From: Minisyncoccota bacterium
GTDB lineage: Bacteria > Patescibacteriota > Minisyncoccia > JAHIHE01 > JAGLIN01
NCBI GenBank assembly: GCA_023137595.1
Contig: JAGLOZ010000029.1
Span: 1 to 47,317, forward strand
Length of the DNA: 47,317 bases
Reading direction: 5' to 3'
A model generated the notes under the pieces. The model was not told the DNA's origin, made no database searches, and was given only the letters and a program-made list of their open reading frames with translations. Positions 285-37,870 of this stretch are shown here, in pieces. How positions within the stretch are numbered: position 1 is the first letter of the stretch; each line of letters opens with the position of its first letter. The position numbers and the translations under genes are program-made.

Positions 285-305
285 TCAGTTGAGTTAAATA
301 TTAAA

Positions 306-7981: not shown

Positions 7982-8119
7982 TTTCGTGACGAAATTTTCA
8001 GATTTTGAGGCATAATTTTTCAAATAATTTTTGAGGTTTAGCCAAGGCTAAGCCGAAAAATTTTTGGGAAATTTGACCAAAATCTGGAAATTGCAGTAGA
8101 AAGTAATTACGCAAGAGGT
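7965..8119. repeat. 155-nt long imperfect inverted repeat (hairpin) overlapping the lgt stop codon
   Basis: The terminal arms ACCTCTTGCGTAATTA (7965-7980) and TAATTACGCAAGAGGT (8104-8119) are 16-nt perfect complements. The inner arms pair at roughly three quarters of positions. The apex is TTAGCC-AA-GGCTAA (8038-8051). Confidence 0.8.
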
Positions 8120-9812: not shown

Positions 9813-10958
9813 ATGAAGATAGGAATGTTTATAAATTATTACACTCCTTCAAAAGGAGGAATGGAAACTTCTGTTATTAATCTCTGCAAAGGACTTGAGA
9901 AAGCGGGGCATAAAACTTTCGTTTTTGCTCCTGAATATCCGAATTATAAAGATGAAAGTAAAAATGTTTTTCGATATAAAAGTTTTCGTTTTAATTATGG
10001 CGGTTATTTTTATGTGATTCCATTGCCATTTTTTTCTAAAGCGCGAGAAGCAGTGGAAAAATTAAATTTGGATATAATTCATAGCCATCAGCCATATTCT
10101 TTGGGCAATGAAGCGTTGAAATTTTCAAAAAAATTAAATATTCCTTTGGTTTTTACATATCACATTAAATATGAGGATTATAATCATTATGTGCCTTTGG
10201 TCCCTGAATCCACTTCAAGAAAATATATCAGAAAAATTACAACAAAATATTCAAATCAATGCGATAATATTATAGTTCCTTCAACTGCAATAAAAAAATT
10301 ATTAATTGATCATGAAATTAAAGCTCCAATAAACATTATACCAAGCGGAATTAATATTAATAATTTTCAAAATGATACTGGCAAAAAAGTAGAAATAAGA
10401 AAGAAGTATCAAATTGAACCAGACGAAATTCTACTTATCACCGCATGCAGGCTAACGGAAGAAAAGAACCTTGGATTTTTAATAAGATCTTTTGCCAAAA
10501 TCGTTTCAAAAGAAAAAAATGTAAAGTTTATGATGGTTGGTGATGGAGCTGTAAGAAAAGATTTAGAGAAAATGGCAAAAGAGTTTGAAATTAAGGACAA
10601 AATGATTTTTACGGGGCTTGTTGACAGAACTTCCATCGTAGATCTTTATCAGGCAAGTGATATTTTTGTTTTTGCCTCGCTTACAGAAACTCAAGGGCTT
10701 GTGGCGGTGGAAGCAATGGCGGCAGGAGATCCGGTTGTAGCGGTCAAAGCAAGTGGAATTGAGGATATTGTAAAGAATGGAGAAGACGGATTTTTAACTT
10801 CCGAGTCAGAAAATGAGTTTTGCGAGAGTGTTTTGAAGATCGTAAATGACAAAGAATTAAGAGAAAAAATGTCTTCTAATGCAAAAGTTAATTCAAGAAA
10901 ATTTGAAATTGCTCCATGGGCAAAGAAGGTGGTTGAATTGTATGAAAGCTTGATGTAG
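9813..10958 (+). CDS. glycosyltransferase family 4
   Basis: 381 aa. N-terminal motif GGMETSVINLCKGLEKAGH. C-terminal motif ETQGLVAVEAMAAGDPVVAVKASGIEDIVKNGEDGFL. Confidence 0.85.
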   Translation: MKIGMFINYYTPSKGGMETSVINLCKGLEKAGHKTFVFAPEYPNYKDESKNVFRYKSFRFNYGGYFYVIPLPFFSKAREAVEKLNLDIIHSHQPYSLGNEALKFSKKLNIPLVFTYHIKYEDYNHYVPLVPESTSRKYIRKITTKYSNQCDNIIVPSTAIKKLLIDHEIKAPINIIPSGININNFQNDTGKKVEIRKKYQIEPDEILLITACRLTEEKNLGFLIRSFAKIVSKEKNVKFMMVGDGAVRKDLEKMAKEFEIKDKMIFTGLVDRTSIVDLYQASDIFVFASLTETQGLVAVEAMAAGDPVVAVKASGIEDIVKNGEDGFLTSESENEFCESVLKIVNDKELREKMSSNAKVNSRKFEIAPWAKKVVELYESLM

Positions 10959-11233
10959 TTATGTTTAAATTGTGCCTGTTATTCTGAATACTGAACTAAA
11001 TTCAGCACAGGCCCGTTTCAGAATCTTTGTTATTTTAGGTTTTAATTTATTTTATTTAACTCTAATCATCATCTACGACGCAAACACAATTATTTTTTTA
11101 ATATCGTAATTGTGTTTTCATTCTAATCAAAATGTTTTGTGATTTATAGGTTTAATCAGCGTAATAGCTGATAGATTCTGAAACAAGTTCAGAATGACAA
11201 AAAATAATAGACGATAAATATAACAATACAACA

Positions 11234-14281: not shown

Positions 14282-14455
14282 TTGACATAATTATTCTTTT
14301 TGCTATACTAATATTATTGAAATAAAATATCTTATGAAATACACAAAAAACAATCAATTTTTCTTTTATAGCTTTTTTAGCCGTCACAAGCGATAGGTTG
14401 TTGTTATAGCTTGATTTTTCCAAAGAACAATCCATCGCAAAGATGGTTTTTTGTT
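14282..14455 (+). promoter_or_regulatory. Phe/Tyr leader-peptide transcription attenuator A in front of the aro operon
   Basis: Promoter: TTGACA 14282-14287, 16-nt spacer with TG, TATACT 14304-14309. The leader ORF is 14334-14396. GCGATAGGTTGTT (14390-14402, contains the TAG stop) is complementary to AACAATCCATCGC (14426-14438) at 12 of 13 positions, including one G-U. The hairpin CCATC-GCAAA-GATGG (14432-14446) is followed by T6 (14447-14452). The aroDEK ATG is at 14493. Confidence 0.75.
14334..14396 (+). CDS. leader peptide MKYTKNNQFFFYSFFSRHKR
   Basis: 20 codons. Five Phe and one Tyr codon fall within 8 consecutive codons (14358-14381). The ORF shares 54 of 63 nt with the second leader at 23728-23790. 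Confidence 0.7.
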   Translation: MKYTKNNQFFFYSFFSRHKR

Positions 14456-14492
14456 ATTTAAATTTAATTTTTATCAGTAATTTATATTATTT

Positions 14493-16388
14493 ATGTTATG
14501 TGGATGTGTTGGAGAAAAAAAGATTAATAATTGTCTAAATCAAATCATTAAAGCCGAGAATAACGGTGCGAAAATTATTGAATTGCGTCTTGATTATTTG
14601 GAACATAAAAATGATTTAAAGCAGATAATTTTATCTTCCAATTTGCCTGTTATCTGCACTAACAGAAATAGCGATCAAAGAATTTTGATTGAGGCGATAG
14701 ATGCCGGCGCAAAATATATTGATATGGATATTAATGAGATTGAATATGATGTTTTGAAATATGCCAGAAAAAAGGGATGTAGGATTATTCTTTCTTATCA
14801 TAATTATAAGGAAACTCCCTCATTAAAGGCAATACTTGCTATAGCAAAAAAATTTCAAAAAGATGCAGATATGATAAAGATAGTAACGACTGCAAGATCA
14901 CAAAAAAACAATGGCATTATTCTGTCGCTTTATGGCGCGATAGAATATCCTCTTATCGCTTTTAGCATGGGCGTGATCGGACAGCAAACTCGAATTGATT
15001 GTTTGGCGCATGGAGCATTGTGGACATATTGTAGTATTGGCCGCAAAAAAATAGCTTCTGGACAAATGAGCTTGGGTGAAATGGCAAAAGAAAAAATATA
15101 TTGTGTGATCGGAAGTCCGATCAGACACTCAATGAGTCCGGTTATGCATAATAAAAATTTCAAATCATTAGGTCTAAATGCAAATTATAGCGCAGTACAA
15201 GTCAGCAACCTTAGCCAATGGATGAAAACCGTTCAAAAAAGAGATATTCACGGGATCAATGTTACAATGCCTTACAAGACAGAAGTGATGAAATATTTAG
15301 ATGAGATTGATCCTTTGGCAGAGAAAATAGGCGCTGTAAATACGATTCATAATAGAAACGGAAAATTGATTGGTTATAACACAGACGCGTTTGGTGCTTT
15401 GCAGGCTATAAAAGAAAAGACAAAAAAATTGAAAAACAGAAAGGTGATAATATTAGGTTCAGGAGGAGCTGCCAGAGCGATCTCGTTTATTCTTGAAAGA
15501 GAAAAAACAGATGTAGTTATTATTTCCAGAAACATAAAAAAAGCAAAAGAAATTGGAAAAGCGTTGAAATATAATAATAAAAACATCAAAGAACAATTAC
15601 AGGAGGCGGATATTTTGATCAATTGTACTCCAATTGGAATGAATTCCAACGAAACTCCAGTGCCAAAAGAGAGTTTGAATAAAAATCTAGTTGTGTTTGA
15701 TATAGTTTATACTCCCATCAAAACAAAGCTCATCAGAGATGCCGAAGAGAAAGGATGCGAGACAATCTTGGGATATAAAATGCTTGCCTTTCAAGGAGCG
15801 CAGTCATTTCAAATTTGGACAGGAAAAAAGCCCAATGTTTCAATTATGCTTGATGCTGTCAAAAAACAACTTTTACCAAGTATAGTCTTGACGGGATTTA
15901 TGGGTTCTGGAAAAACAAGTGTGGGAAAAATATTAGCAAAAGATCTTGGACGAGAATTTATTGATATTGATGAGGAGATAGAAAAAAAGGAAAAAATGTC
16001 AATTAAAAATATTTTTAGAAATCACGGCGAAAAGCATTTTAGAAAATTGGAGAATGAAATTCTCAGAGATGTCGCGTCAAGAAAGAATGTAGTAATTTCC
16101 TGTGGCGGTGGAATTGTTCTTGAGGATAAAAACAGGCAAAGATTAAAATCTTTTATTACTGTTAATTTAAAGGCGGAACCAAGAACTATTGCTCAAAGAT
16201 TATCAAAGGATAAAAGCAGACCGTTATTATTCGGACTAAGCAACAAGGATAAAATAAAAAAAATATCTAGAATATTGAAAGAAAGAGAGAATTTATATAA
16301 AATTACGGCAGATTATTCCGTCAAGACAGACGGTCTCAGCAAAAAAGAAAGTGAAAAAGAAATTATGAGATCAATAATTAAAATTTAA
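14493..16388 (+). CDS. aroDEK: trifunctional 3-dehydroquinate dehydratase (type I) / shikimate dehydrogenase / shikimate kinase fusion
   Basis: 631 aa. The AroD-I part has ELRLDYL, SYHNYKETP and MIKIV. The AroE part has GSPIRHSMSPVMHN, NVTMPYK, NTD and GSGGAARA. The AroK part has the Walker A motif GFMGSGKTSVGK and SCGGGIV. Confidence 0.9.
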   Translation: MLCGCVGEKKINNCLNQIIKAENNGAKIIELRLDYLEHKNDLKQIILSSNLPVICTNRNSDQRILIEAIDAGAKYIDMDINEIEYDVLKYARKKGCRIILSYHNYKETPSLKAILAIAKKFQKDADMIKIVTTARSQKNNGIILSLYGAIEYPLIAFSMGVIGQQTRIDCLAHGALWTYCSIGRKKIASGQMSLGEMAKEKIYCVIGSPIRHSMSPVMHNKNFKSLGLNANYSAVQVSNLSQWMKTVQKRDIHGINVTMPYKTEVMKYLDEIDPLAEKIGAVNTIHNRNGKLIGYNTDAFGALQAIKEKTKKLKNRKVIILGSGGAARAISFILEREKTDVVIISRNIKKAKEIGKALKYNNKNIKEQLQEADILINCTPIGMNSNETPVPKESLNKNLVVFDIVYTPIKTKLIRDAEEKGCETILGYKMLAFQGAQSFQIWTGKKPNVSIMLDAVKKQLLPSIVLTGFMGSGKTSVGKILAKDLGREFIDIDEEIEKKEKMSIKNIFRNHGEKHFRKLENEILRDVASRKNVVISCGGGIVLEDKNRQRLKSFITVNLKAEPRTIAQRLSKDKSRPLLFGLSNKDKIKKISRILKERENLYKITADYSVKTDGLSKKESEKEIMRSIIKI

Positions 16389-16392
16389 TGGT

Positions 16393-16665
16393 ATGGAATT
16401 AAAAGAAATAAGAATAAAATTAGACAAAATAGATAACGACTTGGTTGAAATTGTCGCCAAAAGAATTGAATTAATTCCAGAAGTTGCTGAGTATAAGAAG
16501 GAACATAATCTTGAAAGGTATCAAAAAGGAAGAGAAGACCAAATTATTACAGAATTAAGAAAAAAGGCTTGTGAATTGAATGTTAATCCTGATCTAATAG
16601 AAGATCTGATAAAAAGGATCATTGAAGAATCTCATAGAATTGAAAAAGAAATTATGAAAAAATAA
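16393..16665 (+). CDS. chorismate mutase, AroQ class
   Basis: 90 aa, all-helical. The pattern LKEIRIKLDKIDNDLVEIVAKRIEL...RE matches CM type 2. Confidence 0.8.
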   Translation: MELKEIRIKLDKIDNDLVEIVAKRIELIPEVAEYKKEHNLERYQKGREDQIITELRKKACELNVNPDLIEDLIKRIIEESHRIEKEIMKK

Positions 16666-16829
16666 TTAAATTAGGAATTGCGTATTTGGCGTTTACAGAA
16701 GTTCAGTTTCTCCGTATTTGGTCGTGATTTACAATTTAAATGTTATATACAAGGCAGTACTTAAAATTAAATTGAATGTGTAGAGGTTGAATCTCTTATA
16801 TCTCTTAAGTTCTATAAATAATAAATTAT

Positions 16830-19196
16830 ATGTCTGAGGTCAAATTAATTTTAAACAAATGTGTTCTTGGGAGCGAATCGGTGAAAATTCCTTCATCAAA
16901 AAGTTTTACGCATAGAGCTATAGTTTGCGCCGCTTTGTCATCCGGCATTTCTAGGATTGAGAACCCTTTAATATGTGAAGATATTTTAGCAACGATAGAA
17001 GCGTGCAGATCTTTTGGAGCGAAAATAGAATTAAAAGGAAATGTGATTGAAATTGAAGGTATCGGTAATAATTGGAAGAAACAAAAGTCTAGCGTAAAAA
17101 TAAATTGCCGAGAATCCGGTTCGACAATGAGATTTATAATACCACTTTGCAGTGTTTTGTGTGAATCATCTGAGATTACTGGCAAAATAGGGCTTTTGAA
17201 TAGGCCGATCTATCCAATAATAGATGCGTTAAAACAATTAAATATAAACATAAAAGCAAACGGAAAATATCCACCTGTTCATATAAGAAAAGGAAAACCG
17301 AAAGCTTCTGTAATTCACATTGCCGGAAATATAAGTTCACAATATATTTCAGGGCTCTTGTTCTCTTTGCCATTGTTAGATGGTGATAGCACTTTGATTA
17401 TTACAACTGATTTGCAGTCAAAAGATTATGTTTTGATGACTATTGATGTATTAAAAAGGTTTGGCATTGAAATAATTACATCAAGCGATCTAAGAAAATT
17501 TACGATTAGAGGAAATCAGAACTATAAAGCTGTTAAATGTTATGCCGTGGAAGGGGATTATTCCGCAAGCGCTTTTTGGTTTGTTGCCGGGATTTTTGCT
17601 GCTAGAAGTAAGATAATCATCAAAGGGCTAAGACATTCTTCTCTTCAGGGAGACGCGCAAATTTTAGATATATTAAAAAAAATGGGCGCAGATATTAACT
17701 TTCAAAATGGTAATTTCATTGTCAAAAAAAATCGTTTGAAAGCAATTGAAATTGACGCGAAGAACATTCCTGATCTGGTGCCGATTCTTGCTGTTGCAGG
17801 GACTCAGGCTTATGGAAAAACAATCATAAAGAATATTGAGCGCATCAGAATCAAAGAATCTGATCGAGCAAAAGCAATTACAAGCCAGTTGAAAAAAATG
17901 GGCGCAGTAATTGTTGAAAAAAATAATTCACTGGAAATAAAAGGGCCGACAAAGCTTGTTGGATCGGAAATTGATACTTTTAATGATCATAGAATTGCTA
18001 TGTCAATAGCCGTTGCTTCTCTTGTGACCGAAGGAGAAACAGTCATCAATGATCCAATTTGCATAAAAAAATCATATCCGAATTATTTTGATGATCTAAG
18101 AAAATTAGGCGTAAATGTTGTTCCGATAACTTCAGAGTTTGGAAAAATCGTAAAGATGACGATCTATGGGGATTCTCATGGCAAAAAAGTGGGTGTATGT
18201 CTTGAGGGAATACCAGCTGGAATTCAAATATCAAGAGCTCAAATACAAGAAGAAGTTGATAAGCGCAAAAGCATTAGCTCACTGACTACTCCAAGAAGGG
18301 AAACAGATGCAGTAAAAATTGTTCAAGGAATAAGAAATAATCTGACCACGGGAGAAAAAATTAATTTGGAGATATTAAACAAGAATGTTAATTCTCATTC
18401 TTATGAGCTGATAAAAAACACGCCTCGACCAGGTCATGCGGATCTTGCTGTCAGGACAAAATATGCCAGTGTTTTTGATTATCGCGGAGGAGGTTTTGCT
18501 TCCGGCAGGATGACCGTGTGTATGGTTGCGGCTGGTTCAATTGCAAAGAAAATATTAGTTAATAATGGAATAAAAATCATTGCGTTCACAAAACAAGTCG
18601 GCAATGTGAAGATGAGCAAAAACCCAAGCTTTAAAGATTTAGAAAAAAATACTTATAAAAATTTGGCAAGGTGTCCTGACAATAAAGTCGCGTTAAAAAT
18701 GATAAAAAAAATTGAAGAAACAAAAAAGAAGAATGATTCAATCGGGGGCATTGTGGAGTGTATGATCATTGGCTTGCCTGTTGGACTCGGAGAGCCCTTA
18801 TTTAATTCTATGGAAAGTGTTCTTTCTCAAGCAATGTTTTCAATTCCTGCGATTAAAGCGGTAGAGTTTGGTTCTGGTTTCAAATCTGTTACTATGAGCG
18901 GAAGCAAACATAATGATAGTTTTCATTTTGATGAAAATGATAATATAATTTCTTCGTCAAATAATGCGGGAGGAATTTTAGGCGGGATAACGACCGGGAT
19001 GCCTATTATTTTCAGAATAGCGGTTAAGCCGACTGCTTCTATCGGTTCTGTGCAAAATACGGTTAGTTTTGAAACTTGCAGAGATGCTAAAATTACGGTT
19101 GGCGGAAGGCACGACCCTTGTATTGTCATTCGAGTTCCTCCAGTAGCTGAAGCGATGGCGTCAATTTCAATTCTTGATCTGTTGTATCGAGCATAA
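16830..19196 (+). CDS. aroAC: bifunctional EPSP synthase / chorismate synthase fusion
   Basis: 788 aa. The N-terminal ~430 aa are EPSPS (PSSKSFTHRAIVCAALS, ESGSTMRF, DHRIAMS). The C-terminal ~350 aa are chorismate synthase (YGDSHGKKVGV, RPGHADL, GGRHDPC). Confidence 0.9.
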   Translation: MSEVKLILNKCVLGSESVKIPSSKSFTHRAIVCAALSSGISRIENPLICEDILATIEACRSFGAKIELKGNVIEIEGIGNNWKKQKSSVKINCRESGSTMRFIIPLCSVLCESSEITGKIGLLNRPIYPIIDALKQLNINIKANGKYPPVHIRKGKPKASVIHIAGNISSQYISGLLFSLPLLDGDSTLIITTDLQSKDYVLMTIDVLKRFGIEIITSSDLRKFTIRGNQNYKAVKCYAVEGDYSASAFWFVAGIFAARSKIIIKGLRHSSLQGDAQILDILKKMGADINFQNGNFIVKKNRLKAIEIDAKNIPDLVPILAVAGTQAYGKTIIKNIERIRIKESDRAKAITSQLKKMGAVIVEKNNSLEIKGPTKLVGSEIDTFNDHRIAMSIAVASLVTEGETVINDPICIKKSYPNYFDDLRKLGVNVVPITSEFGKIVKMTIYGDSHGKKVGVCLEGIPAGIQISRAQIQEEVDKRKSISSLTTPRRETDAVKIVQGIRNNLTTGEKINLEILNKNVNSHSYELIKNTPRPGHADLAVRTKYASVFDYRGGGFASGRMTVCMVAAGSIAKKILVNNGIKIIAFTKQVGNVKMSKNPSFKDLEKNTYKNLARCPDNKVALKMIKKIEETKKKNDSIGGIVECMIIGLPVGLGEPLFNSMESVLSQAMFSIPAIKAVEFGSGFKSVTMSGSKHNDSFHFDENDNIISSSNNAGGILGGITTGMPIIFRIAVKPTASIGSVQNTVSFETCRDAKITVGGRHDPCIVIRVPPVAEAMASISILDLLYRA

Positions 19197-19223
19197 TTTA
19201 TTAAATAAAATAACCAAAAAAAT

Positions 19224-19985
19224 ATGAATAAAGAAAAGGAAATTCTACTGGCAAAAATCATTGATCCAGAGAAAAATCGCGTTGTAATTCTGCCAATGGA
19301 TCATGGTGTGAGCGAAGGTCCGATTGACGGACTGATAAATATGAAGGAAACAATTTTAAAGGTTAAGCAAGGAGGAGTTGACGCTATTGTGATTCATAAA
19401 GGAATTTATAAAAAATACAAAGAGGTGATTGGAGATTTACCGGCGCTAATTCATCTTTCTGCTTCGACAAAAATAGGAAATGTTTTAAAAAAAGTTCTGA
19501 TAGCAACAGTCCAAGAAATCAAAGAATTAGGAGCGCAAGGCGCGTCAATTCATGTAAACCTTGGCAATAAATATGAAGAAGATATGCTCAAAGATCTTGG
19601 AGTTGTTTCGCGAGAGTGCGAGAGAATCGGACTGCCGCTGCTTGCAATGATGTACCCAAGAGACGAAGAAAATGGAAGAATAATTTCATATACGGATTCA
19701 GAAAGAGTTAAACTTGCAGCCAGAGTGGCCTTTGAGTTGGGTGCTGATATTGTTAAGGTTCCATATACAGGCAGCGCGGAAAGTTTTCAGGAGGTTTGCC
19801 AAGGCGTTGATATTCCGGTTGTAATTGCTGGTGGGGCCAAGGGCAATGAAAAAGAAATGCTAAAGTCTATTAAGGATTGTGTAATGGTTGGCGCGGCTGG
19901 AGTTTCTATCGGACGCAATGCTTTTCAAGCTGATGATATACCCAGGACAATTGGAAAAATAAGAAGCGTTGTATATGATAACTAG
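19224..19985 (+). CDS. aroA': 2-amino-3,7-dideoxy-D-threo-hept-6-ulosonate (ADH) synthase, archaeal-type (class I aldolase DhnA/FbaB family)
   Basis: 253 aa. The sequences ILPMDHGVSEGPI, IHVNLG, LLAMMYPR, ADIVKVPYTG and AAGVSIGRNAFQ closely recall MJ0400-type proteins. The gene sits directly upstream of DHQ synthase II. Confidence 0.7.
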   Translation: MNKEKEILLAKIIDPEKNRVVILPMDHGVSEGPIDGLINMKETILKVKQGGVDAIVIHKGIYKKYKEVIGDLPALIHLSASTKIGNVLKKVLIATVQEIKELGAQGASIHVNLGNKYEEDMLKDLGVVSRECERIGLPLLAMMYPRDEENGRIISYTDSERVKLAARVAFELGADIVKVPYTGSAESFQEVCQGVDIPVVIAGGAKGNEKEMLKSIKDCVMVGAAGVSIGRNAFQADDIPRTIGKIRSVVYDN

Positions 19986-20013
19986 TTTTTAATTAAAAAA
20001 TAAAAATAATTTC

Positions 20014-21021
20014 ATGAAAAAGTTTTGGTATAAAATATTAAATTGGGATAAAAGATTAGTTTCAGCTGCAATTGAAAGCGGATTTGATTCTATCTATGTA
20101 TCGTCCGATGATGTCAAAAAAGTCAGAGAACTCTCCAGAATAGGAGTTATTTCAAACAACAAAGAGGCTGATCTAGTTTTAGATAAAGACGTTAAAGAGA
20201 TTATTATCAAGTCAAAGGAATCAGAAAAAGATATTGTTAATTTAAATGGAAAAATTCCTGTTATTATAAAAAATAAAGATTGGACTATAATTCCTCTTGA
20301 AAATTTGATTTCCAAAACGACTAATTTAATTCAGTATGTAGAAAATTACAAAGAGGCGAAGGTTGCTCTTGAAACGATGGAAAAAGGCGCTGACGGCATT
20401 GTCCTTGAGACAAATGATATGAATGAGATTAAAAAAGTTGGGAATCTGATCAGAGAGATCCAGAACGAGAAATTATCTTTGACAGAAGTTGAGATAGACA
20501 GAATCAAACAAGTTGGAATCGGTGATCGTGTTGTTGTTGACACTTCAAGCATTTTGAAACCGGGACAAGGGATATTGGCGGGAGACTCATCCTCTGCGAT
20601 GTTTTTAGTATATAATGAAAATGTTCAAACTCCTTATTGCGATCCTCGTCCTTTTAGGGTTAATGCGGGAGGAGTTCATGCTTATGTTCAGATAGCAGGA
20701 GATAAAACAAAATATTTAGGAGAGCTGGCAAGCGGATCAAAAATAATGGTTGTTGATCAAAACGGAAATACGCAAGAAGCTATTATTGGACGAGTTAAAA
20801 TTGAAAAGAGACCAATGCTGGCAGTATATGCTCATTATCATAATAAAAAGATGAGTTTGATAATGCAGAATGCAGAAACGATTCGGTTAACGAAAAAAGA
20901 TGGAAGTCCTATTTCCGTTACAAAATTGAAAAAGGGAGATAGGGTTTTAGCAAATCTTGAGCAAGATGGGGTTGGTAGGCATTTCGGTCAAAAAATTAAA
21001 GAAACTATTTTAGAAAAATAA
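20014..21021 (+). CDS. aroB': 3-dehydroquinate synthase II (archaeal-type)
   Basis: 335 aa with N-terminal FWYKI..WDKRLVSAAIESGFDSIYV and C-terminal GRVKIEKRPMLAVYA, as in the DHQS type II family (MJ1249-like). Confidence 0.75.
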   Translation: MKKFWYKILNWDKRLVSAAIESGFDSIYVSSDDVKKVRELSRIGVISNNKEADLVLDKDVKEIIIKSKESEKDIVNLNGKIPVIIKNKDWTIIPLENLISKTTNLIQYVENYKEAKVALETMEKGADGIVLETNDMNEIKKVGNLIREIQNEKLSLTEVEIDRIKQVGIGDRVVVDTSSILKPGQGILAGDSSSAMFLVYNENVQTPYCDPRPFRVNAGGVHAYVQIAGDKTKYLGELASGSKIMVVDQNGNTQEAIIGRVKIEKRPMLAVYAHYHNKKMSLIMQNAETIRLTKKDGSPISVTKLKKGDRVLANLEQDGVGRHFGQKIKETILEK

Positions 21022-21025
21022 TAAA

Positions 21026-22417
21026 ATGGAAAAAAGAAGATCAAAAATAATAGTAAATAAATTTGGCGGTGGAATTCTAACTTCAAGATATATTCTTGTT
21101 GCCAAAAAACGGATTGAACAGCAAATAGAAAAAGGCTATAGCCCGATTGTTGTAGTTTCAGCGCTAAACGGAGTGACAGACGATCTAGTTGAATTCTTTT
21201 CTGAGCTTAATAATGTAAATCTGCGAAGAAGAAAAGAAAATAGAAATGAAAACAGACATATCGAGAATTTAATTGATTTGTTCATTAAGGATATCAGAAA
21301 AAAGCATATCTTAATGATGCGAAGAGTGAAAATAAGCGAAGAAGATCAAGACAAGATAATGCTTTCTTTTGATCAAGTATTTCAGGAAATGAAAGATGAT
21401 TTTGCTGCTAGCACTCGTTTTGGAGGTTTGGATATGGTTCAAGATAAAATTCTTTCATATGGAGAGCGACTAAGCGCTTTGTTTTTCTGTGTATTTTTGA
21501 ATGTAAATGACATCAAAGCTAAAATATTTCTAGCAGAGGATATTCCAATTACAACGGATAACGTTCATTTGAATGCAAATATTAATTATAATGAAGCATC
21601 AAGAAATACTAGAAAAACATTAAAGTCTATGAATGCGATACCTATTATAAACGGATTTACCGGAAGGGATAAGGATGGAAATATTACAACCTTGGGAAGG
21701 GGTGGAACAGACACAACAGCGTGTTTTGTCGGAGCGGCGCTAAAAGCAGATAGGGTTGTCTTGTGGAAAGATACAAAGGGAGTATTATCCGCAGATCCGC
21801 GGATCATTCAAAATGCTAAAACAATCGCTTATCTCAGCTATGAAGAAGCAGTTGAATCTGGAAAGATCGTCCACGACAAAGCCATTTCTTATGTGAAAGA
21901 CTCTAAGACCCCTTTGGAAATTGTTTCTATATCTGATACAAAAAAATATACTTTGGTTGGACCCCAAAGCAAAGAAGATGTCGGCGCTAAAATTATTGGC
22001 TTCAAAAAAGAATTAATGCTTATGGTTATAACCGATGATAGGGTGAGCGAATATGGATTTCTTTTTGGTGTTGCAAAAATTTTGAGTTTCCATAAAATTA
22101 ATATGGTTTTAATTCGCAATACTCGCGACAGTCTTCATGTTGTAGTTGAAAATGATAATGTCAATCTAGAGAAGGCGTTAGAGGAATTGAAAAGGAAAAA
22201 ATATTTAATTTGTTGTTGGCCTGTTTGTATGATAACTTTAATCGGCAGTTTGAATTGGAAAATGGTTAATATTTTCAATGATGTGCTTTTAGAAAATTGT
22301 TCAAATCCTCAATTAGGCGCTTTTCCTTATAAACATTGCGTTCGACTGGAAGCTGTCGTAAAAAGTACAGAAATGAAAAAAGTTATGCGCGAACTTCACA
22401 AGAAGTTTATTAATTGA
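21026..22417 (+). CDS. aspartate kinase
   Basis: 463 aa with VNKFGGGIL, VVVSALNGVTDDL and GRGGTDTTA, and a C-terminal ACT-like region. It starts 4 nt after the aroB' stop. Confidence 0.8.
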   Translation: MEKRRSKIIVNKFGGGILTSRYILVAKKRIEQQIEKGYSPIVVVSALNGVTDDLVEFFSELNNVNLRRRKENRNENRHIENLIDLFIKDIRKKHILMMRRVKISEEDQDKIMLSFDQVFQEMKDDFAASTRFGGLDMVQDKILSYGERLSALFFCVFLNVNDIKAKIFLAEDIPITTDNVHLNANINYNEASRNTRKTLKSMNAIPIINGFTGRDKDGNITTLGRGGTDTTACFVGAALKADRVVLWKDTKGVLSADPRIIQNAKTIAYLSYEEAVESGKIVHDKAISYVKDSKTPLEIVSISDTKKYTLVGPQSKEDVGAKIIGFKKELMLMVITDDRVSEYGFLFGVAKILSFHKINMVLIRNTRDSLHVVVENDNVNLEKALEELKRKKYLICCWPVCMITLIGSLNWKMVNIFNDVLLENCSNPQLGAFPYKHCVRLEAVVKSTEMKKVMRELHKKFIN

Positions 22418-22511
22418 GATTTTGCTTTGAGATATACTAATATTTTAAAGCATGGAAATAAAAATATGTATTTTAAAACCTAATATATTAATAAAATAAT
22501 TAAGTTAGATT

Positions 22512-23597
22512 ATGAAAAAATATAAAGTAGGAATTTTAGGGGCAACTGGCATGGTCGGTCAAAATTATATTAAATTATTAGAAGATCATCCTTGGTTTGA
22601 TATTTCTTATCTGGCAGCTTCTCCCAGGACTGCGGGAGAAAAATATGGCAGAGAGATGAAAGACAAATGGCAAATGGATGTTGCTATGCCAGAGAATGTG
22701 CTTAATATAGTCCTTGAAGATGTTGGTAATGTTGAAAAAATCAAAGGAAAATGTGACCTTGTTTTTTCTTCGTTTGGGATGAATAGTGATGAAAAGATCA
22801 GAGATTGTGAAAATAAATATGCAAAATTTGGCCTGCCGGTTGTCTCTAGCTCTTCTGCCAACAGGCATACAAAAGATGTGCCGATGATCGTTCCGGAAGT
22901 GAATTCCGGACATTTAGAAATGATTAAAATTCAGAAAAAAAATCACTTATGGGATAAAGGATTTATTGTCACTAAGCCAAATTGCAGCTTACAAAGTTAT
23001 ATTATTCCGGTGTATGCGCTAATGAAAGCCGGTTATGAAGTCAAGAAAATGATAGTTACGACTTTGCAAGCAGTCTCCGGAGGGGGGTATCCCGGCATAG
23101 CAAGTTTAGATATGATTGATAATGTTGTTCCTTATATCGGAGGAGAAGAAGAAAAGAGTGAAACAGAACCATTAAAAGTACTAGGAAAAATTGAAAATGG
23201 AAATTATAAAAATTTTGATGATTTGAAAATTTCAGCGCACTGTAATCGAGTTCCCGTAGCAGATGGTCATTTAGCATGCGTGAGTATGCTTTTTGGAAAA
23301 AATAAACCAAACAAAAGCGAGATTATAAATATTTGGAGAGATTTTAGACCAGATATTCAAGGATTAAATTTACCGTTTGCTCCGAGTCCTACTATCATAT
23401 ATAAAGAAGAAGAGAATAGACCTCAACCCAAAAAGGATCGCCAAGAAGGAAATGGCATGGCGATTACGATTGGAAGATTGAGAGAGTGTAATGTTTTTGA
23501 TCATAAATTTACTTGTTTAAGCCACAACACTATCAGAGGAGCAGCAGGCGGCGGAATTTTGCTTGCAGAACTTTTAGCAAAAAAAAGGTTGATTTAG
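22512..23597 (+). CDS. asd: aspartate-semialdehyde dehydrogenase (archaeal/fungal-type branch)
   Basis: 361 aa with KVGILGATGMVGQ (Rossmann), the active-site motif KPNCSLQ, and RVPVADGHLACV. Confidence 0.85.
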   Translation: MKKYKVGILGATGMVGQNYIKLLEDHPWFDISYLAASPRTAGEKYGREMKDKWQMDVAMPENVLNIVLEDVGNVEKIKGKCDLVFSSFGMNSDEKIRDCENKYAKFGLPVVSSSSANRHTKDVPMIVPEVNSGHLEMIKIQKKNHLWDKGFIVTKPNCSLQSYIIPVYALMKAGYEVKKMIVTTLQAVSGGGYPGIASLDMIDNVVPYIGGEEEKSETEPLKVLGKIENGNYKNFDDLKISAHCNRVPVADGHLACVSMLFGKNKPNKSEIINIWRDFRPDIQGLNLPFAPSPTIIYKEEENRPQPKKDRQEGNGMAITIGRLRECNVFDHKFTCLSHNTIRGAAGGGILLAELLAKKRLI

Positions 23598-23666
23598 TGG
23601 GACAGAATTAATTTATTTATCAGAATTTACAAAGCCGTAAATGCAGAAAAAAACGGAAACATATGG

Positions 23667-23849
23667 TTGACATATATTATCTATATGCTATTATTGTTTT
23701 TAGATAAAGAATCAGTTCAATATAATTATGAATCATACAAAGAATAATCAATTTTTCTTTTTTAGCTTTTTTAGCCGTCATCTGCGATAGGTTGTTTTTT
23801 CAGCATAATTTTCTCAAAAAACAATCCATCGCAAAGATGGTTTTTTGTT
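23667..23849 (+). promoter_or_regulatory. Phe leader-peptide transcription attenuator B (paralog of A)
   Basis: Promoter: TTGACA 23667-23672, 16-nt spacer with TG, TATTAT 23689-23694. The leader ORF is 23728-23790. GCGATAGGTTGTTTTTT (23784-23800) is complementary to AAAAAACAATCCATCGC (23816-23832). The hairpin CCATC-GCAAA-GATGG (23826-23840) is followed by T6. The 30 nt at 23820-23849 are identical to 14426-14455. Confidence 0.75.
23728..23790 (+). CDS. leader peptide MNHTKNNQFFFFSFFSRHLR
   Basis: 20 codons, with six Phe codons within seven consecutive codons (23752-23772). The TAG stop lies inside the antiterminator strand. Confidence 0.7.
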   Translation: MNHTKNNQFFFFSFFSRHLR

Positions 23850-24013
23850 TGTTTAAAGGCGCTTGTAATTGCAATAATAAGAATGGAATTTACCCTTTAG
23901 GGTTTCAAAAATCACTGAAATTCTGGAGGGTGGATTTAAGAAATCACCTAAAACAAAAAGATTCTTTGAACCGATAACGGCGGAATTAAAACTAAAGTAA
24001 AAGAGGCAGAAAT

Positions 24014-24151
24014 ATGAATGAAATAAAAGATGAAATTGAAGTGAGGGATCCCATTCTTAAAATTGCCGACAAAGTGCATCAAGGAATGGAAAAAGGAAGA
24101 GAGTTGGACAAAAGACGTAATTCTTTTGCAGGGCGTCAGAATGGATTCTGA
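24014..24151 (+). CDS. unannotated small ORF, 45 aa (MNEIKDEIEVRDPILKIADKVHQGMEKGRELDKRRNSFAGRQNGF)
   Basis: AGAGG lies 7 nt upstream of the ATG. It is the first ORF downstream of attenuator B. The terminator hairpin overlaps its stop codon. It is below the ORF-track cutoff. Confidence 0.4.
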   Translation: MNEIKDEIEVRDPILKIADKVHQGMEKGRELDKRRNSFAGRQNGF

Positions 24152-24166
24152 TGCCCTTTATTTATT
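24131..24166 (+). terminator. rho-independent terminator
   Basis: GGGCGTCAGAA (24131-24141) pairs with TTCTGATGCCC (24146-24156), 11 bp including one G-U, with loop TGGA. It is followed by TTTATTTATT. Confidence 0.65.
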
Positions 24167-24241
24167 ATTAAAGGTTTTTGTCATTTGATATTGTATAGCT
24201 CTGGATGCCCGGTGTCTTTGGAGACACGGGGTGTCTATAGG

Positions 24242-24281
24242 AGAAGAGAGTCAAAAACGATGACTCTCTTCTTTTCTATTT
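24242..24281 (+). terminator. second plus-strand terminator-like hairpin
   Basis: GAAGAGAGTCA (24243-24253) pairs perfectly with TGACTCTCTTC (24261-24271) over 11 bp. It is followed by TTTTCTATTT. There is no T run in the minus orientation. Confidence 0.5.
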
Positions 24282-24293
24282 AGAATCTTATTT

Positions 24294-24860
24294 CTATTTT
24301 TCCACTGCCAAAAAATTTGTGAAATTAAACTTCAAGTCTTGTATTCCTTTTTCCATAACAATAAGACCATATAAAGTAGCGCAGCTTTCAGGGGCGAGGA
24401 CGGCAGTGTCCTTGGAAAGATTTCCCTCTGAGAGGTCTTTTGCTGATTTCGCGGTATCTTCAGTCTCATGCAGGCCAGTTTCTCCCCAGTTTCTCTTAAG
24501 ATAAGTTTTGCATTGCTTGAGCGCCTGATCATGAGAGGCTATGTTCTTTATATCTTCTTTTTCAATTCCTGGTTTTGTTAGCAAGCAATGAACCACGGGA
24601 ATTTCAAAAATTTCTTTTATTTTGAATGTATGCCTTGAGATCGCATAAACACTTTCAATAACAACACCGCCGTTTGAGTTTTCAATTGGAAAGATGCCCA
24701 AGTCAATTTCTTTTTTGTCAATTTCAGTGAGGACTTTTTCTACGGAAATAAGGCATTTAATTTCATAGTTTTTGATGCCATTTTTTCTAGCGTGTTCATT
24801 TGCGGCTTGTTCCGAAAAACTGCCGATATCGCCAGAAACGCCGATTTTTATTTTTTTCAT
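24294..24860 (-). CDS. pheA: prephenate dehydratase catalytic domain paralog lacking the ACT domain
   Basis: 188 aa, the same length as the 13568-14134 product and roughly 60 percent identical by eye (GDIGSFSEQAA, FPIENSNGGVV, ASHDQALKQC, NFTNF). Confidence 0.75.
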   Translation of the reverse strand: MKKIKIGVSGDIGSFSEQAANEHARKNGIKNYEIKCLISVEKVLTEIDKKEIDLGIFPIENSNGGVVIESVYAISRHTFKIKEIFEIPVVHCLLTKPGIEKEDIKNIASHDQALKQCKTYLKRNWGETGLHETEDTAKSAKDLSEGNLSKDTAVLAPESCATLYGLIVMEKGIQDLKFNFTNFLAVEK

Positions 24861-29456: not shown

Positions 29457-29789
29457 ATGGCAGAAGACAGGGAATTAACGCATTATGAAAAGATGCTTTT
29501 AGGTGAAATAGAGAATGAAATGAAAAAACTTTCAAAAGATCTTGAAGTTAAAATAAAAGAGAAATTGGAAGTTGGAAGCAAAGAAGCAAAGGAAATTGTG
29601 TCTAACTTATTAGAAGATTCACGGATGATTGTGAATGATCCTCATGAGCTATTGTCAATTCTAAACGGAGAAAGAGGAGTGGAGAAGGTTCGTGATTTAC
29701 TTCAAAAACATGTAATTCTTGATAATATTAATTTTGCTTTTAAGACTGTTGAACCAGTGAAGCAACAATTTAACAATACAACAATCTAA
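29457..29789 (+). CDS. hypothetical protein
   Basis: 110 aa. A strong AAGGAGG lies 8 nt upstream of the ATG. The 3' end overlaps the pth 3' end by 20 nt. Confidence 0.55.
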   Translation: MAEDRELTHYEKMLLGEIENEMKKLSKDLEVKIKEKLEVGSKEAKEIVSNLLEDSRMIVNDPHELLSILNGERGVEKVRDLLQKHVILDNINFAFKTVEPVKQQFNNTTI

Positions 29790-30303
29790 CAATTTCATTC
29801 TCAATCTCTTCAATCACTTCCTCAATAATCTCCATCTCATCTTTACCAAACCCCTCTAGCACAAACTTTTCAGTTGGTGTTTTTTTGTTTTTGGTCATTA
29901 TTCCGATTCTGATTCTTGTAAAATCTTTTGTTCCGAGACAGTCAATAATTGACTGGACTCCTTTGTGTCCGCCGGAATTTCTATTTTTCGAAATTTTATA
30001 TTCTCCAAGCGGAATATCAAGATCGTCGTGAATGACAATTATATCTCTCGGGTCAATTTTGTAATAATCTAAAACAGCGCGAACCGCTTGTCCGGAACTA
30101 TTCATAAAAGTCAAAGGTTTGACTAATATAACTTTTTCATTATCTATTGCATCTTGCGAAATTTCAGCGTTGAATTTGGAATTGAAACCGGAAACCGGAA
30201 ACTGAAAATTATTCGCTATTTTATTTACGACTAAAAAGCCGGTGTTGTGTCGGGTTTTTTCATATTTTTTTCCTGGATTTCCAAGACCAATAATCAGTTT
30301 CAT
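29770..30303 (-). CDS. pth: peptidyl-tRNA hydrolase
   Basis: 177 aa with LIIGLGNPGKKYEKTRHNTGF, IHDDLD and GGHKGV. Confidence 0.92.
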   Translation of the reverse strand: MKLIIGLGNPGKKYEKTRHNTGFLVVNKIANNFQFPVSGFNSKFNAEISQDAIDNEKVILVKPLTFMNSSGQAVRAVLDYYKIDPRDIIVIHDDLDIPLGEYKISKNRNSGGHKGVQSIIDCLGTKDFTRIRIGIMTKNKKTPTEKFVLEGFGKDEMEIIEEVIEEIENEIVRLLYC

Positions 30304-34910: not shown

Positions 34911-34914
34911 AAAT

Positions 34915-34973
34915 AAATTGCTCTATTGCTAAATTGTTATGCATAGCATAGCAATTTAGCAATAGAGCAATTT
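34915..34973. repeat. 22-bp perfect-stem hairpin built from AAATTG/CAATTT words
   Basis: AAATTGCTCTATTGCTAAATTG (34915-34936) pairs perfectly with CAATTTAGCAATAGAGCAATTT (34952-34973). The intervening TTATGCATAGCATAG begins with a conserved 14-nt loop motif, TTATGCATAGCATA. Confidence 0.85.
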
Positions 34974-35052
34974 AACAATCTGAGAGATTACTTAGAAAAA
35001 TTAGTTGTAAAATTAAATTTAAAATAATTGAAATACATAAATCTTAAAATTA

Positions 35053-37367: not shown

Positions 37368-37412
37368 ATTTTGATTCGGAAATTTAGTGTTGGTGTTTTT
37401 AATAAAAATTAC

Positions 37413-37475
37413 ATTGTTACATTGTTAAATTGCTGTATTGTTATGCATGGTATGGCAATTTAACAATTTAACAAT
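37413..37475. repeat. 21-bp-stem hairpin of ATTGTTA/TAACAAT words with a conserved loop
   Basis: ATTGTTACATTGTTAAATTGC (37413-37433) pairs with GCAATTTAACAATTTAACAAT (37455-37475) at 19 of 21 positions. The loop contains TTATGCATGGTATG. Confidence 0.8.
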
Positions 37476-37492
37476 TTAACAATTTAGTATGT

Positions 37493-37870
37493 ATGATAGT
37501 ATTTAGTTTTAAAAAACTTGCTAGAAGTTTTTCACATGCAATTAGAGGATTCAGGTGTGTTTTTCGGGAGCAAAATTTTAAAATACAGATTATATTTTCT
37601 ATTGCTGTTTTTGTTCTAATATTATTTTTCAATCTCAAGTTGTGGGAAATAGTTGTTTTGATCATGATGATTACTCTTGTTTTGGTATTGGAAATCATTA
37701 ATTCAATTTTTGAGAGAATTATGGATATTCTACAGCCAAGAGTTCATCCTTACGCAAAAACGGTAAAAGATATGATGGCTTCGGCAGTTCTGACGGCATC
37801 TTTAGGGGCTTTTTTTATCGGTTTATTGATTTTCTGGCCTCATTTTAAGGATATTGTCCAATGTTTTTGA
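37493..37870 (+). CDS. dgkA: diacylglycerol/undecaprenol kinase
   Basis: 125 aa with three TM helices, FSHAIRGFRCVFREQNF and EIINSIFERIMD. Confidence 0.85.
   Translation: MIVFSFKKLARSFSHAIRGFRCVFREQNFKIQIIFSIAVFVLILFFNLKLWEIVVLIMMITLVLVLEIINSIFERIMDILQPRVHPYAKTVKDMMASAVLTASLGAFFIGLLIFWPHFKDIVQCF

What the first reader, a model, noticed from the sequence alone, without database searches (positions are those of the whole stretch)
23667..24166. Second Phe attenuator (paralog) that controls only an unannotated 45-aa sORF, convergent with a pheA paralog
The region 23667-23849 repeats the architecture of attenuator A. The promoter is TTGACA-16 nt-TATTAT. The 20-codon leader is MNHTKNNQFFFFSFFSRHLR, sharing 54 of 63 nt with leader A. 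The TAG stop lies in GCGAUAGGUUGUUUUUU, which can pair with AAAAAACAAUCCAUCGC. A 30-nt block (23820-23849) carrying the terminator is 100 percent identical to 14426-14455. The 23-nt loop between the paired strands has the same length in both copies but only 15 of 23 identical positions. This pattern of conserved paired strands and a diverged loop is what a functional RNA switch predicts. The only plausible coding sequence downstream is a 45-aa ORF (24014-24151, AGAGG 7 nt upstream of the ATG), ended by an 11-bp terminator. It faces the 3' end of the ACT-less prephenate dehydratase paralog (24294-24860, minus strand). A Phe-starvation-induced micro-protein or transcript of unknown function would be new biology. 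The sORF N-terminus (MNEIKDEI) resembles that of the 82-aa ORF at 45996-46244 (MTEIKDEI), which may be chance.
Basis: partly seen in the sequence, partly recalled or inferred. Interest (0 to 1): 0.75.

Follow-up and report, generated by a model that had tools for sequence, protein, structure and literature searches.

The report
Phe attenuator copy driving a small ORF
This is a real, conserved phenylalanine-sensing leader-peptide switch in a candidate-phyla-radiation bacterium; here it now precedes only a structured RNA hairpin and a 45-codon gene, because the tRNA-Phe-like element and a neighbouring gene that follow it in related genomes have been deleted.

Summary
Window 23667-23856 carries a consensus promoter, a 20-codon Phe-rich leader ORF (23728-23790), an antiterminator/terminator pair, and a 131-nt stretch 85% identical to the attenuator at 14282-14455 that heads the aro operon. 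The element is not a stray duplicate. I found 14 full copies of the same attenuator (two in the window, 12 elsewhere), plus one truncated copy and one variant, in about a dozen related Patescibacteria contigs. All full copies have TTGACA promoters, and the antiterminator shows compensatory changes.

In relatives the B-type unit, convergent on the ACT-less pheA2, continues as attenuator, conserved hairpin "E", tRNA-Phe(GAA) or a degenerate tRNA-like element, then cargo. The cargo is pheA, an aminotransferase, or small genes X and Y.

In the window, exact collinear anchors to one close relative (L008) indicate that the tRNA-like piece and X are deleted. They also indicate that a non-homologous 45-aa cassette occupies the Y slot.

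The sORF has one known homolog (70% identity, in-frame indel, dN/dS about 0.33), so it is probably coding. Its function is unknown.

This is a new variant of classical ribosome-mediated attenuation, in an unusual phylum and with unusual cargo.

The parts
23667..23694 (+). Sigma-70-type promoter of attenuator B: -35 TTGACA at 23667-23672, extended -10 TGcTATTAT ending at 23694.
   Evidence: The scan scores it 11 of 12. A perfect TTGACA sits at the same relative position in every family copy retrieved with its 5' flank.
23728..23790 (+). Leader ORF, 20 codons: MNHTKNNQFFFFSFFSRHLR*. Six Phe codons fall within codons 9-15. The TAG stop lies inside the 5' strand of the antiterminator.
   Evidence: Fourteen full copies share the pattern M..NN(Q/W)FFF..F(F)SR(H/Q)xR*.
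23773..23842 (+). Antiterminator helix. It has three paired segments: 23773-23779 with 23836-23842, 23783-23788 with 23828-23833, and 23790-23800 with 23816-23826.
   Evidence: MFE folds are. In one search, 92.9% of cells are paired across 10 copies, against 31-54% in slid controls, and 2 pairs show double compensatory changes.
23826..23846 (+). Intrinsic terminator: CCAUC-GCAAA-GAUGG plus U6. Its 5' arm is shared with the antiterminator 3' strand. It is also the first plus-strand terminator after asd (stop at 23597).
   Evidence: Scan. The constrained fold with a ribosome at the stop codon yields the terminator.
23886..23937 (+). Conserved hairpin "E": 22 bp, -27.2 kcal/mol.
   Evidence: Fold. 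RNAalifold on 8 loci gives 24 pairs, 7 of them with compensatory double changes. In relatives E lies between the attenuator and the tRNA-Phe or tRNA-like element.
23948..23963 (+). Remnant of the tRNA 3' trailer, CTAAAACAAAAAGATT. The tRNA-like element that precedes it in relatives is deleted here.
   Evidence: This 16-mer is identical to L008 5970-5955, which lies directly after the tRNA-like element. ARAGORN finds no tRNA in the window.
23980..23993 (+). Remnant of the 3' end of small gene X, GCGGAATTAAAACT. The body of X is deleted.
   Evidence: This 14-mer is identical to L008 5731-5718, the last codons of X. L012 carries AGCGGAATTAAAATT at the same place.
24002..24151 (+). RBS (AGAGG, 24002-24006) and the 45-aa sORF (24014-24151): MNEIKDEIEVRDPILKIADKVHQGMEKGRELDKRRNSFAGRQNGF.
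   Evidence: ORF. The single homolog P0002 on contig L006 is 70% identical. There is an in-frame 12-nt indel and dN/dS is 0.33, with 25 nt differences giving 9 aa differences (P about 5e-5). The predicted structure is a single helix with pLDDT 75.
24130..24167 (+). Terminator hairpin overlapping the sORF 3' end, followed by a U-rich tail.
   Evidence: Scan (12 pairs); -19.4 kcal/mol. It is conserved in L006 with compensatory changes: C-G to U-A, G.U to G-C.
24229..24281 (+). Remnant of the Y 3' end (GGGTGTCTATA, 24229-24239), the conserved end-of-unit terminator hairpin (about 24240-24272) and its U tract.
   Evidence: The 11-mer is identical to L008 5484-5474. The hairpin folds at -21.2 kcal/mol. 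Matching GAGAGT..ACTCTC terminators occur in L008, L010 and L012.
24294..24860 (-). pheA2, an ACT-less prephenate dehydratase, convergent with the unit.
   Evidence: Pfam PDT only. The convergent arrangement with a Phe-attenuator unit recurs in L008, L010, L012, L014, L020, L022 and L024.
14282..14455 (+). Attenuator A, the paralogous copy heading the aro operon (14493-23597). pheA1-tyrA lie divergent to it.

Best explanation
Attenuator B is a functional ribosome-mediated, Phe-codon-sensing transcription attenuator.

**Mechanism (inferred from sequence)**
- Transcription starts about 7 nt after the -10 element at 23694.
- The 20-codon leader is translated.
- If charged tRNA-Phe is scarce, the ribosome stalls in FFFFSFF (codons 9-15). 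The segment UGCGAUAGGUUGUUUUUU stays free and pairs with AAAAAACAAUCCAUCGCA to form the antiterminator. RNA polymerase then reads on.
- If Phe-tRNA is plentiful, the ribosome reaches the UAG stop that lies inside that segment and covers it. CCAUC-GCAAA-GAUGG-U6 forms instead and transcription stops at about 23846.

**What it controls**
- Read-through RNA carries the conserved hairpin E and the 45-aa sORF. It ends at the hairpin at 24130-24157 or at the one at about 24240-24272, before pheA2.
- No terminator lies between asd and B. B therefore also acts as the conditional 3' terminator of aro-operon transcripts.

**Evolutionary reading**
- B corresponds by position to a modular unit of this Patescibacteria clade: attenuator, E, tRNA-Phe(GAA) or a tRNA-like element, then cargo.
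- In the window lineage the tRNA-like element and gene X were deleted.
- The Y slot holds a non-homologous small-gene cassette, the sORF.
- The biosynthetic genes sit under copy A.
For: **Anatomy.** Searches show all the parts. Constrained folds switch as the model requires: free or stalled gives the antiterminator at -16.8 to -27.7 kcal/mol, and a ribosome at the stop gives the terminator.

**Family conservation.** There are 14 full copies, one truncated copy and one variant.
- All full copies have a Phe-rich leader whose stop codon lies in GAUAGG.
- Every copy retrieved with its 5' flank has a TTGACA promoter.
- The antiterminator is 92.9% paired with compensatory changes. A second terminator type has a matching compensatory antiterminator, GAGAUAGG/CCUGUCUC.

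**Phe logic of the cargo.**
- aro operon: window copy A.
- pheA: L017, L019, L020.
- Aminotransferase: L022, L024.
- Canonical tRNA-Phe(GAA): L010, L022. ARAGORN also calls a D-loop-less 68-nt tRNA-Phe in L016.
- No consensus promoter lies between the attenuator and the tRNA in L010 or L016.

**Degenerate state of the window.** Collinear exact anchors to L008 cover E, the tRNA trailer, the X 3' end and the Y 3' end.

**sORF coding signal.**

**No internal promoter or terminator.** No consensus promoter lies between 23857 and 24013, and no terminator lies between asd and B.
Against: - There are no expression data. Everything about regulation is inferred from sequence.
- The leader has no Shine-Dalgarno sequence, and neither do most family members.
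- The terminator stem is only 5 bp (-6.2 kcal/mol alone).
- There is no obvious 1:2 "protector" hairpin, so untranslated transcripts would read through.
- In the window the cargo has no recognisable link to Phe metabolism.
- The sORF family has only two members in 1.84 billion representative proteins.
- L006, the only other sORF locus, is too short (142 nt upstream of E) to show whether a leader precedes it.
- The deletion history rests on anchors to a single close relative, L008.
Confidence: 0.72

Rival explanations
1. The main selected role of B is to be the conditional terminator and 3'-end element of the aro operon. The sORF and the remnants downstream are evolutionary leftovers with no role of their own.
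For: No plus-strand intrinsic terminator lies between the asd stop (23597) and the B terminator at 23826-23846. The downstream unit is visibly eroded, with the tRNA-like element and X deleted. The sORF family is tiny.
Against: B keeps its own consensus promoter. Hairpin E is intact and the sORF keeps its RBS. The sORF shows dN/dS of 0.33 and an in-frame indel against L006. This reading does not exclude the main explanation.
Confidence: 0.3
2. The 45-codon ORF is not translated. The conserved downstream RNA (E plus the 24014-24167 stretch with its hairpin) acts as a non-coding RNA or is merely a 3' UTR or terminator region.
For: Part of the conservation with L006 falls in RNA hairpins. The terminator shows compensatory changes and overlaps the ORF's 3' end, where the two peptides differ. 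E is clearly an RNA-level element. Only two sequences support the coding signal.
Against: The RBS is conserved at the same spacing. The 12-nt indel is in frame. Synonymous changes are in excess, including TTG to CTC. The other two frames are full of stops in both sequences. The permutation test gives P about 5e-5. No Rfam family matches.
Confidence: 0.25
3. B is a non-functional duplicate of A in the process of decay.
For: B has no biosynthetic cargo and lies next to deletion scars.
Against: B is as similar to the L008 attenuator (85.5% over 131 nt) as it is to A (85%). This indicates an old, constrained element and not a recent copy. The promoter, leader frame, stop-codon position, both helices and the U-tract are all intact. 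By position, B is the counterpart of the single copy in L010 and of the copy in L008.
Confidence: 0.08
4. Read-through from B produces antisense RNA across pheA2 and down-regulates it.
For: The convergent geometry with pheA2 is conserved in many relatives.
Against: Two strong plus-strand terminators (-19.4 and -21.2 kcal/mol) lie between the sORF and pheA2, and relatives conserve the second one. Repressing a prephenate dehydratase during Phe limitation would also be counter-productive.
Confidence: 0.05

Closest known systems
pheL-pheA (and pheM-pheST) leader-peptide attenuators of Enterobacteria; Rfam Phe_leader RF01859
   Same: A short leader ORF carries a run of Phe codons. Mutually exclusive antiterminator and terminator hairpins follow it, with an intrinsic terminator and U-tract. 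Ribosome position decides the outcome. In paralog A and in relatives the controlled genes belong to Phe biosynthesis.
   Different: - No sequence or structure match to RF01859, even at E <= 10.
- The host is a Patescibacteria (CPR) bacterium.
- The design is three-segment, with the stop codon inside the antiterminator 5' strand and no evident 1:2 pause/protector hairpin.
- The B copy precedes a hairpin and a small ORF, not pheA.
- In relatives the unit carries a tRNA-Phe gene or a tRNA-like element.
leu/phe leader motif of Lactococcus (Rfam RF01743; recalled from memory, not re-read here)
   Same: It is a leader-peptide attenuator outside the Proteobacteria with Phe or Leu codon runs, found upstream of amino-acid genes.
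   Different: No Rfam match was obtained. The sequence, host and cargo all differ.
T-box riboswitches
   Same: They are cis-acting leaders that respond to tRNA charging and choose between a terminator and an antiterminator. The 3' arm of E contains AGGGUGGA, which superficially resembles the T-box sequence.
   Different: There is no T-box Rfam hit. The UGG in E is not conserved (UGA, UAG or UAA in relatives) and simply covaries as part of a helix. Sensing here is through translation of Phe codons, not through tRNA binding.
Mixed tRNA-mRNA operons such as thrU-tyrU-glyT-thrT-tufB of E. coli (from general knowledge)
   Same: In relatives L010, L016 and L022 a tRNA gene is co-transcribed with downstream protein genes from one promoter.
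   Different: Here the tRNA lies behind an attenuator that senses its own cognate amino acid, and in several lineages it has degenerated into a tRNA-like element. In the window itself the tRNA part is absent.

Membership tests
Ribosome-mediated leader-peptide transcription attenuator (Phe type) | Short leader ORF enriched in codons of the regulating amino acid | tested here: met
   The 20-codon leader has 6 Phe in codons 9-15. The pattern is conserved in 14 full copies.
Ribosome-mediated leader-peptide transcription attenuator (Phe type) | Mutually exclusive antiterminator and terminator structures sharing a strand | tested here: met
   CCAUC (23826-23830) belongs to both helices. Constrained folds switch between them. 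The antiterminator is 92.9% paired with compensatory changes.
Ribosome-mediated leader-peptide transcription attenuator (Phe type) | Intrinsic terminator (hairpin plus U-tract) before the regulated genes | tested here: met
   Stem at 23826-23840 plus T6. The stem is short, at 5 bp.
Ribosome-mediated leader-peptide transcription attenuator (Phe type) | Leader stop codon placed so that a terminating ribosome masks the antiterminator 5' strand | tested here: met
   UAG at 23788-23790 lies inside GCGAUAGG, and this holds in all 14 full copies.
Ribosome-mediated leader-peptide transcription attenuator (Phe type) | Controls genes for synthesis or use of the cognate amino acid | tested here: inconclusive
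   Not met for B's own downstream ORF, whose function is unknown. Met for A (aro operon) and for relatives with pheA, an aminotransferase or tRNA-Phe. B also terminates the aro operon.
Ribosome-mediated leader-peptide transcription attenuator (Phe type) | Read-through increases when charged tRNA-Phe is limiting | not testable with these tools
   This needs in vivo or in vitro transcription-translation assays.
Rfam Phe_leader (RF01859) | Match to the covariance model at or above its gathering score | tested here: not met
   No hit at the gathering threshold, and none at E <= 10 on 23600-24320.
T-box riboswitch | Stem I specifier plus a conserved T-box bulge, or an Rfam T-box match | tested here: not met
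   No Rfam hit. The UGG in the 3' arm of E is not conserved.
tRNA-Phe gene within the unit | Cloverleaf with a GAA anticodon detected by ARAGORN | tested here: not met
   There are no tRNAs in the window. A tRNA-Phe is present in L010, L016 and L022. Degenerate tRNA-like elements occur in L006, L008, L012, L017 and L020.
Small-protein family Y of relatives (L008, L012, L014, L016) | Detectable sequence homology to the Y profile | tested here: not met
   hhalign gives probability 0.1. BLOSUM and DNA scores are no better than shuffles. Profile searches in both directions do not connect the two families.

The most novel reading that the evidence does not exclude
In this Patescibacteria clade the Phe leader-peptide attenuator is the front end of a modular, Phe-limitation-induced transcription unit. 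The unit consists of attenuator, conserved hairpin E, tRNA-Phe(GAA) or a tRNA-like derivative, and exchangeable small-protein cassettes (X, Y, or the 45-aa sORF) that swap between conserved flanks. Under this reading the window's sORF is a real microprotein induced by Phe starvation. The family as a whole would then couple sensing of charged tRNA-Phe to tRNA-Phe supply and to unknown small effectors.
Probability: 0.35. Interest if true: 0.7.

Novelty: new variant of a known kind. Interest (0 to 1): 0.55.

Why it matters
- **Regulation in CPR bacteria.** Leader-peptide attenuation is textbook biology in Proteobacteria. To my knowledge it has not been described in CPR/Patescibacteria, organisms usually portrayed as lacking amino-acid biosynthesis and its regulation. 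I could not check the literature because the paper search failed.
- **What the family controls.** A whole family of such switches governs a complete aromatic pathway and pheA in these genomes. In some genomes it governs the tRNA-Phe gene itself, which would form an autoregulatory loop on the very molecule the switch senses. It also governs fast-evolving small proteins.
- **What the window copy shows.** It shows how such a unit erodes while the switch is retained. It also offers a concrete, testable candidate for an amino-acid-starvation-induced microprotein.

Tried and rejected
1. **sORF as a diverged member of the Y family: rejected.** hhalign gives probability 0.1. Protein and DNA alignment scores fall within shuffles. 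Neither profile search links the families. The flanks are 100% identical to L008 and the spacing is the same (249 vs 247 nt), yet the interior shows no similarity. This points to cassette replacement and not to divergence.
2. **sORF related to the 82-aa ORF at 45996-46244: rejected.** The match is a low-complexity N-terminal stretch only.
3. **Hairpin E as a T-box or other known RNA: rejected.** There is no Rfam hit, and the UGG motif is not conserved.
4. **Pfam searches.** Scans of the sORF and of the X and Y proteins gave nothing above noise.
5. **Structure prediction.** The sORF models as a single helix with pLDDT 75, too uninformative for a fold search.
6. **Genome-contig scan with Asd.** It returned one Paceibacterota genome with a different gene context. 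It was useful only for taxonomy.
7. **L006 as a test of whether the sORF always follows a Phe leader: inconclusive.** The contig has only 142 nt upstream of E, and other loci carry 200-340-nt MITE insertions at that position.
8. **Literature searches.** One returned nothing and five timed out. The novelty judgement therefore rests on the negative Rfam results and on general knowledge.

Full report
**1. Observation**

The region is exactly as described.
- The top direct repeat of the window pairs 14332-14462 with 23726-23856: 131 nt at 85% identity.
- Both copies start with a near-consensus extended -10 promoter. B has TTGACA-16-TATTAT (11 of 12). A has TTGACA-16-TATACT.
- Both encode a 20-codon leader: MNHTKNNQFFFFSFFSRHLR* in B and MKYTKNNQFFFYSFFSRHKR* in A. 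They share 54 of 63 nt. The correct coordinates of leader B are 23728-23790.
- A 30-nt block carrying the terminator is identical in the two copies.
- The region folds far better than shuffles: -33.7 kcal/mol, z = -3.7.
- The 45-aa ORF, its AGAGG RBS and a 12-bp terminator are present.
- pheA2 is a PDT-only protein, 61% identical to pheA1.

**2. Genomic setting**

The organism is a Patescibacteria (CPR) bacterium.
- Its Asd is 66% identical to that of a Candidatus Paceibacterota MAG.
- Close pheA2 homologs are labelled Andersenbacteria, Pacebacteria or Patescibacteria.

Attenuator A heads a 9-kb aromatic operon at 14493-23597. The operon contains an AroD-AroE-AroK fusion, chorismate mutase, an AroA-AroC fusion, a DeoC-type aldolase, DHQ synthase II, aspartate kinase and Asd. 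pheA1-tyrA are divergent from A.

Attenuator B begins 70 nt after the asd stop. No plus-strand intrinsic terminator is predicted between asd and B's own terminator.

**3. The attenuator is a conserved family**

I looked at contigs carrying pheA2 homologs and scanned metagenome contigs for TTTTTTAGCCGTCANNNGNGATAGGT. This recovered 14 full copies (two in the window, 12 elsewhere), one 5'-truncated copy and one variant.

All full copies share these features:
- a Phe-rich leader ending ...SR(H/Q)xR*;
- the stop codon inside GAUAGG.

Every copy retrieved with its 5' flank also has a perfect TTGACA -35 box.

On a 10-copy alignment the antiterminator is 92.9% paired, against 31-54% when the partner strand is slid. 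Two pairs carry double compensatory changes and several carry one-sided G.U changes.

A second terminator type (AUAGCC...GGCUAU) occurs in L014, L018 and L024. Its antiterminator is correspondingly changed to GAGAUAGG/CCUGUCUC. The alternative-structure logic is therefore what is conserved.

Constrained folding of the window copies behaves as the model requires. With the ribosome stalled at Phe codons 9-15 the antiterminator forms, at -16.8 to -25.7 kcal/mol. With the ribosome at the stop codon only the terminator can form.

**4. What normally follows this attenuator**

| Locus | What follows the attenuator |
|---|---|
| L010 | Single attenuator between divergent pheA1 and convergent pheA2; then hairpin E, canonical tRNA-Phe(GAA), two small ORFs |
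| L022 | Two divergent units; one has E, canonical tRNA-Phe, aminotransferase |
| L016 | E, a 68-nt D-loop-less tRNA-Phe, small gene Y |
| L008, L012 | E, tRNA-like remnant (acceptor and T arm retained, ARAGORN-negative), X, Y |
| L020 | E, tRNA-like remnant, PDT-ACT pheA, a 93-aa ORF |
| L017 | E, tRNA-like remnant, pheA |
| L019 | pheA directly |
| L024 | aminotransferase |
| L014, L018, L011 | X-like and Y-like small genes |

No consensus promoter lies between the attenuator and the tRNA in L010 or L016.

E is a genuine RNA hairpin. RNAalifold on 8 loci predicts 24 pairs, 7 of them with compensatory double changes.

**5. What the window has**

Exact collinear anchors to L008, whose pheA2 is 90% identical, are these:
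- E 5' arm: 23 nt, window 23885;
- tRNA 3' trailer CTAAAACAAAAAGATT: window 23948;
- last codons of X, GCGGAATTAAAACT: window 23980;
- 3' end of Y, GGGTGTCTATA: window 24229, followed by the conserved end-of-unit terminator.

The spacings show two deletions in the window:
- about 100 nt, covering the tRNA-like element and its 5' spacer;
- about 207 nt, covering the body of X.

The interval from the X end to the Y end is 249 nt in the window and 247 nt in L008. Even so, its content (RBS, sORF, terminator, spacer) shows no detectable similarity to Y. Since the flanks are identical, this indicates replacement by a different cassette and not divergence.

**6. The sORF**

- A search of 5.8 billion clustered proteins, and a profile search of 1.84 billion representatives, found a single relative: P0002 on the 553-nt contig L006.
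- There the sORF follows E and a tRNA-like element that has an intact GAA anticodon arm.
- The two genes differ by an in-frame 12-nt indel.
- They differ at 25 nt, but this produces only 9 amino-acid changes. dN/dS is 0.33, and random placement of the changes does as well in 5e-5 of trials.
- The RBS and its spacing are conserved.
- The terminator overlapping the 3' end shows compensatory changes, while the C-termini of the peptides differ.
- The peptide is predicted to be a single helix and has no Pfam match.

I conclude that it is probably a translated small gene of narrow distribution and unknown function.

**7. Mechanism and status**

Shown by computation:
- all the structural parts;
- their conservation and covariation;
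- the Phe-related cargo of family members;
- the deletion scars;
- the coding signal of the sORF.

Inferred:
- Phe-tRNA-dependent read-through;
- the transcription start site;
- translation of a leader that lacks a Shine-Dalgarno sequence;
- co-transcription of E and the sORF;
- the dual role of B as the conditional terminator of the aro operon.

A and B are as different from each other (85%) as B is from the L008 copy (85.5%). The duplication is therefore old and both copies are constrained.

The L010 arrangement is exactly what recombination between A and B would leave. It is equally what an insertion of the aro operon with attenuator duplication would start from. The direction cannot be decided here.

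**8. Comparison with known systems**

- Functionally this is classical leader-peptide attenuation of the pheL/pheM type.
- It is not a member of Rfam Phe_leader or of any other Rfam family.
- It lacks an evident 1:2 protector hairpin.
- It occurs in CPR bacteria.
- In its complete form it precedes a tRNA-Phe or tRNA-like element and small-protein cassettes.
- A T-box reading of E was tested and rejected.
- The literature could not be consulted: one search returned nothing and five timed out.

**9. Verdict**

The "sORF-only" cargo is a degenerate derivative of a richer conserved unit, and the sORF's link to Phe physiology is unproven.
- Novelty: new variant of a known kind.
- Interest: 0.55. 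This rests mainly on the clade-wide picture (an attenuator family in CPR, and tRNA-Phe behind a Phe leader), not on the window copy alone.

Noticed in passing
window 14493-23597 (+): A Patescibacteria genome carries a complete aromatic amino-acid super-operon. It contains an AroD-AroE-AroK triple fusion, CM_2, an AroA-AroC fusion, a DeoC-type (ADH-synthase-like) aldolase, archaeal-type DHQ synthase II, and aspartate kinase plus Asd, which supply the aspartate semialdehyde this route needs. This is unusual for CPR bacteria.
   Followed up: partly
L010 11191-11267 (-); L022 7826-7900 (-); L016 1869-1936 (+): In relatives a tRNA-Phe(GAA) gene lies directly behind a Phe leader-peptide attenuator, with no consensus promoter in between. 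It is canonical in L010 and L022 and D-loop-less in L016. This would form an autoregulatory loop on the molecule the attenuator senses.
   Followed up: partly
L008 ~5973-6039 (-), L006 ~233-300 (+), L012 ~10325-10375 (-), L017 ~4038-4108 (+), L020 ~8010-8070 (-), L022 ~8690-8760 (+): Degenerate tRNA-Phe-like elements lie in the 5' UTR between hairpin E and the cargo (pheA, X/Y or the sORF). They keep the acceptor stem and T arm, and often a GAA anticodon arm, but the D arm is lost and ARAGORN does not call them. They may be decaying genes, or retained RNase P/Z processing signals.
   Followed up: partly
window 23886-23948; L016 1801-1862; L022 8560-8700: A segment just 3' of hairpin E is complementary to E's 3' arm. 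It reads AAATCACC in the window and GAAATTCATC in L016 and L022. It gives a possible alternative pairing. E-like arms are also dispersed elsewhere: an inverted pair at L008 333-395 and a copy at L012 4789-4808 upstream of dprA.
   Followed up: partly
window 5343-5401 and 11173-11231; L012 10540-10760, L014 11400-11440, L017 3690-3830, L019 3880-4010, L020 8200-8320: Short palindromic, MITE/REP-like inserts recur in these genomes. One family reads GTCATTCTGAACTTGTTTCAGAATC. Inserts of this kind repeatedly sit between the attenuator and its cargo in relatives.
   Followed up: no
window 29766-29795, 34914-34981, 37410-37493, 40075-40104, 41412-41446: Arrays of 8-nt periodic repeats (CAATTTAA / TAACAATT and their complement) lie at several intergenic positions (families D2, D3 and D5).
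   Followed up: no
L011 12052 and 14119 (-); L014 10570-11319 (-); L018 218-; L024 6643-7173 (-): Small, fast-evolving protein families recur behind Phe attenuators across relatives. X has a GFYIKNGKIII / VVxxRGED motif and runs about 72-176 aa. Y has a DGIxSIEALI..AKR..FG motif and runs about 65-80 aa. Neither has a Pfam match. A profile search of 5.8 billion proteins returned only four Y proteins.
   Followed up: partly
L020 7134-7958 (-): One relative carries a third prephenate dehydratase, with an ACT domain (274 aa), under the attenuator and next to the ACT-less pheA2. In this clade the ACT-less paralogs may therefore not be the feedback-regulated enzyme.
   Followed up: no
window 38004-39248 and 40117-41331 (+): Two similar-sized ORFs (414 and 404 aa) each overlap a 225-aa antisense ORF. 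They are probably paralogs. I did not examine them.
   Followed up: no
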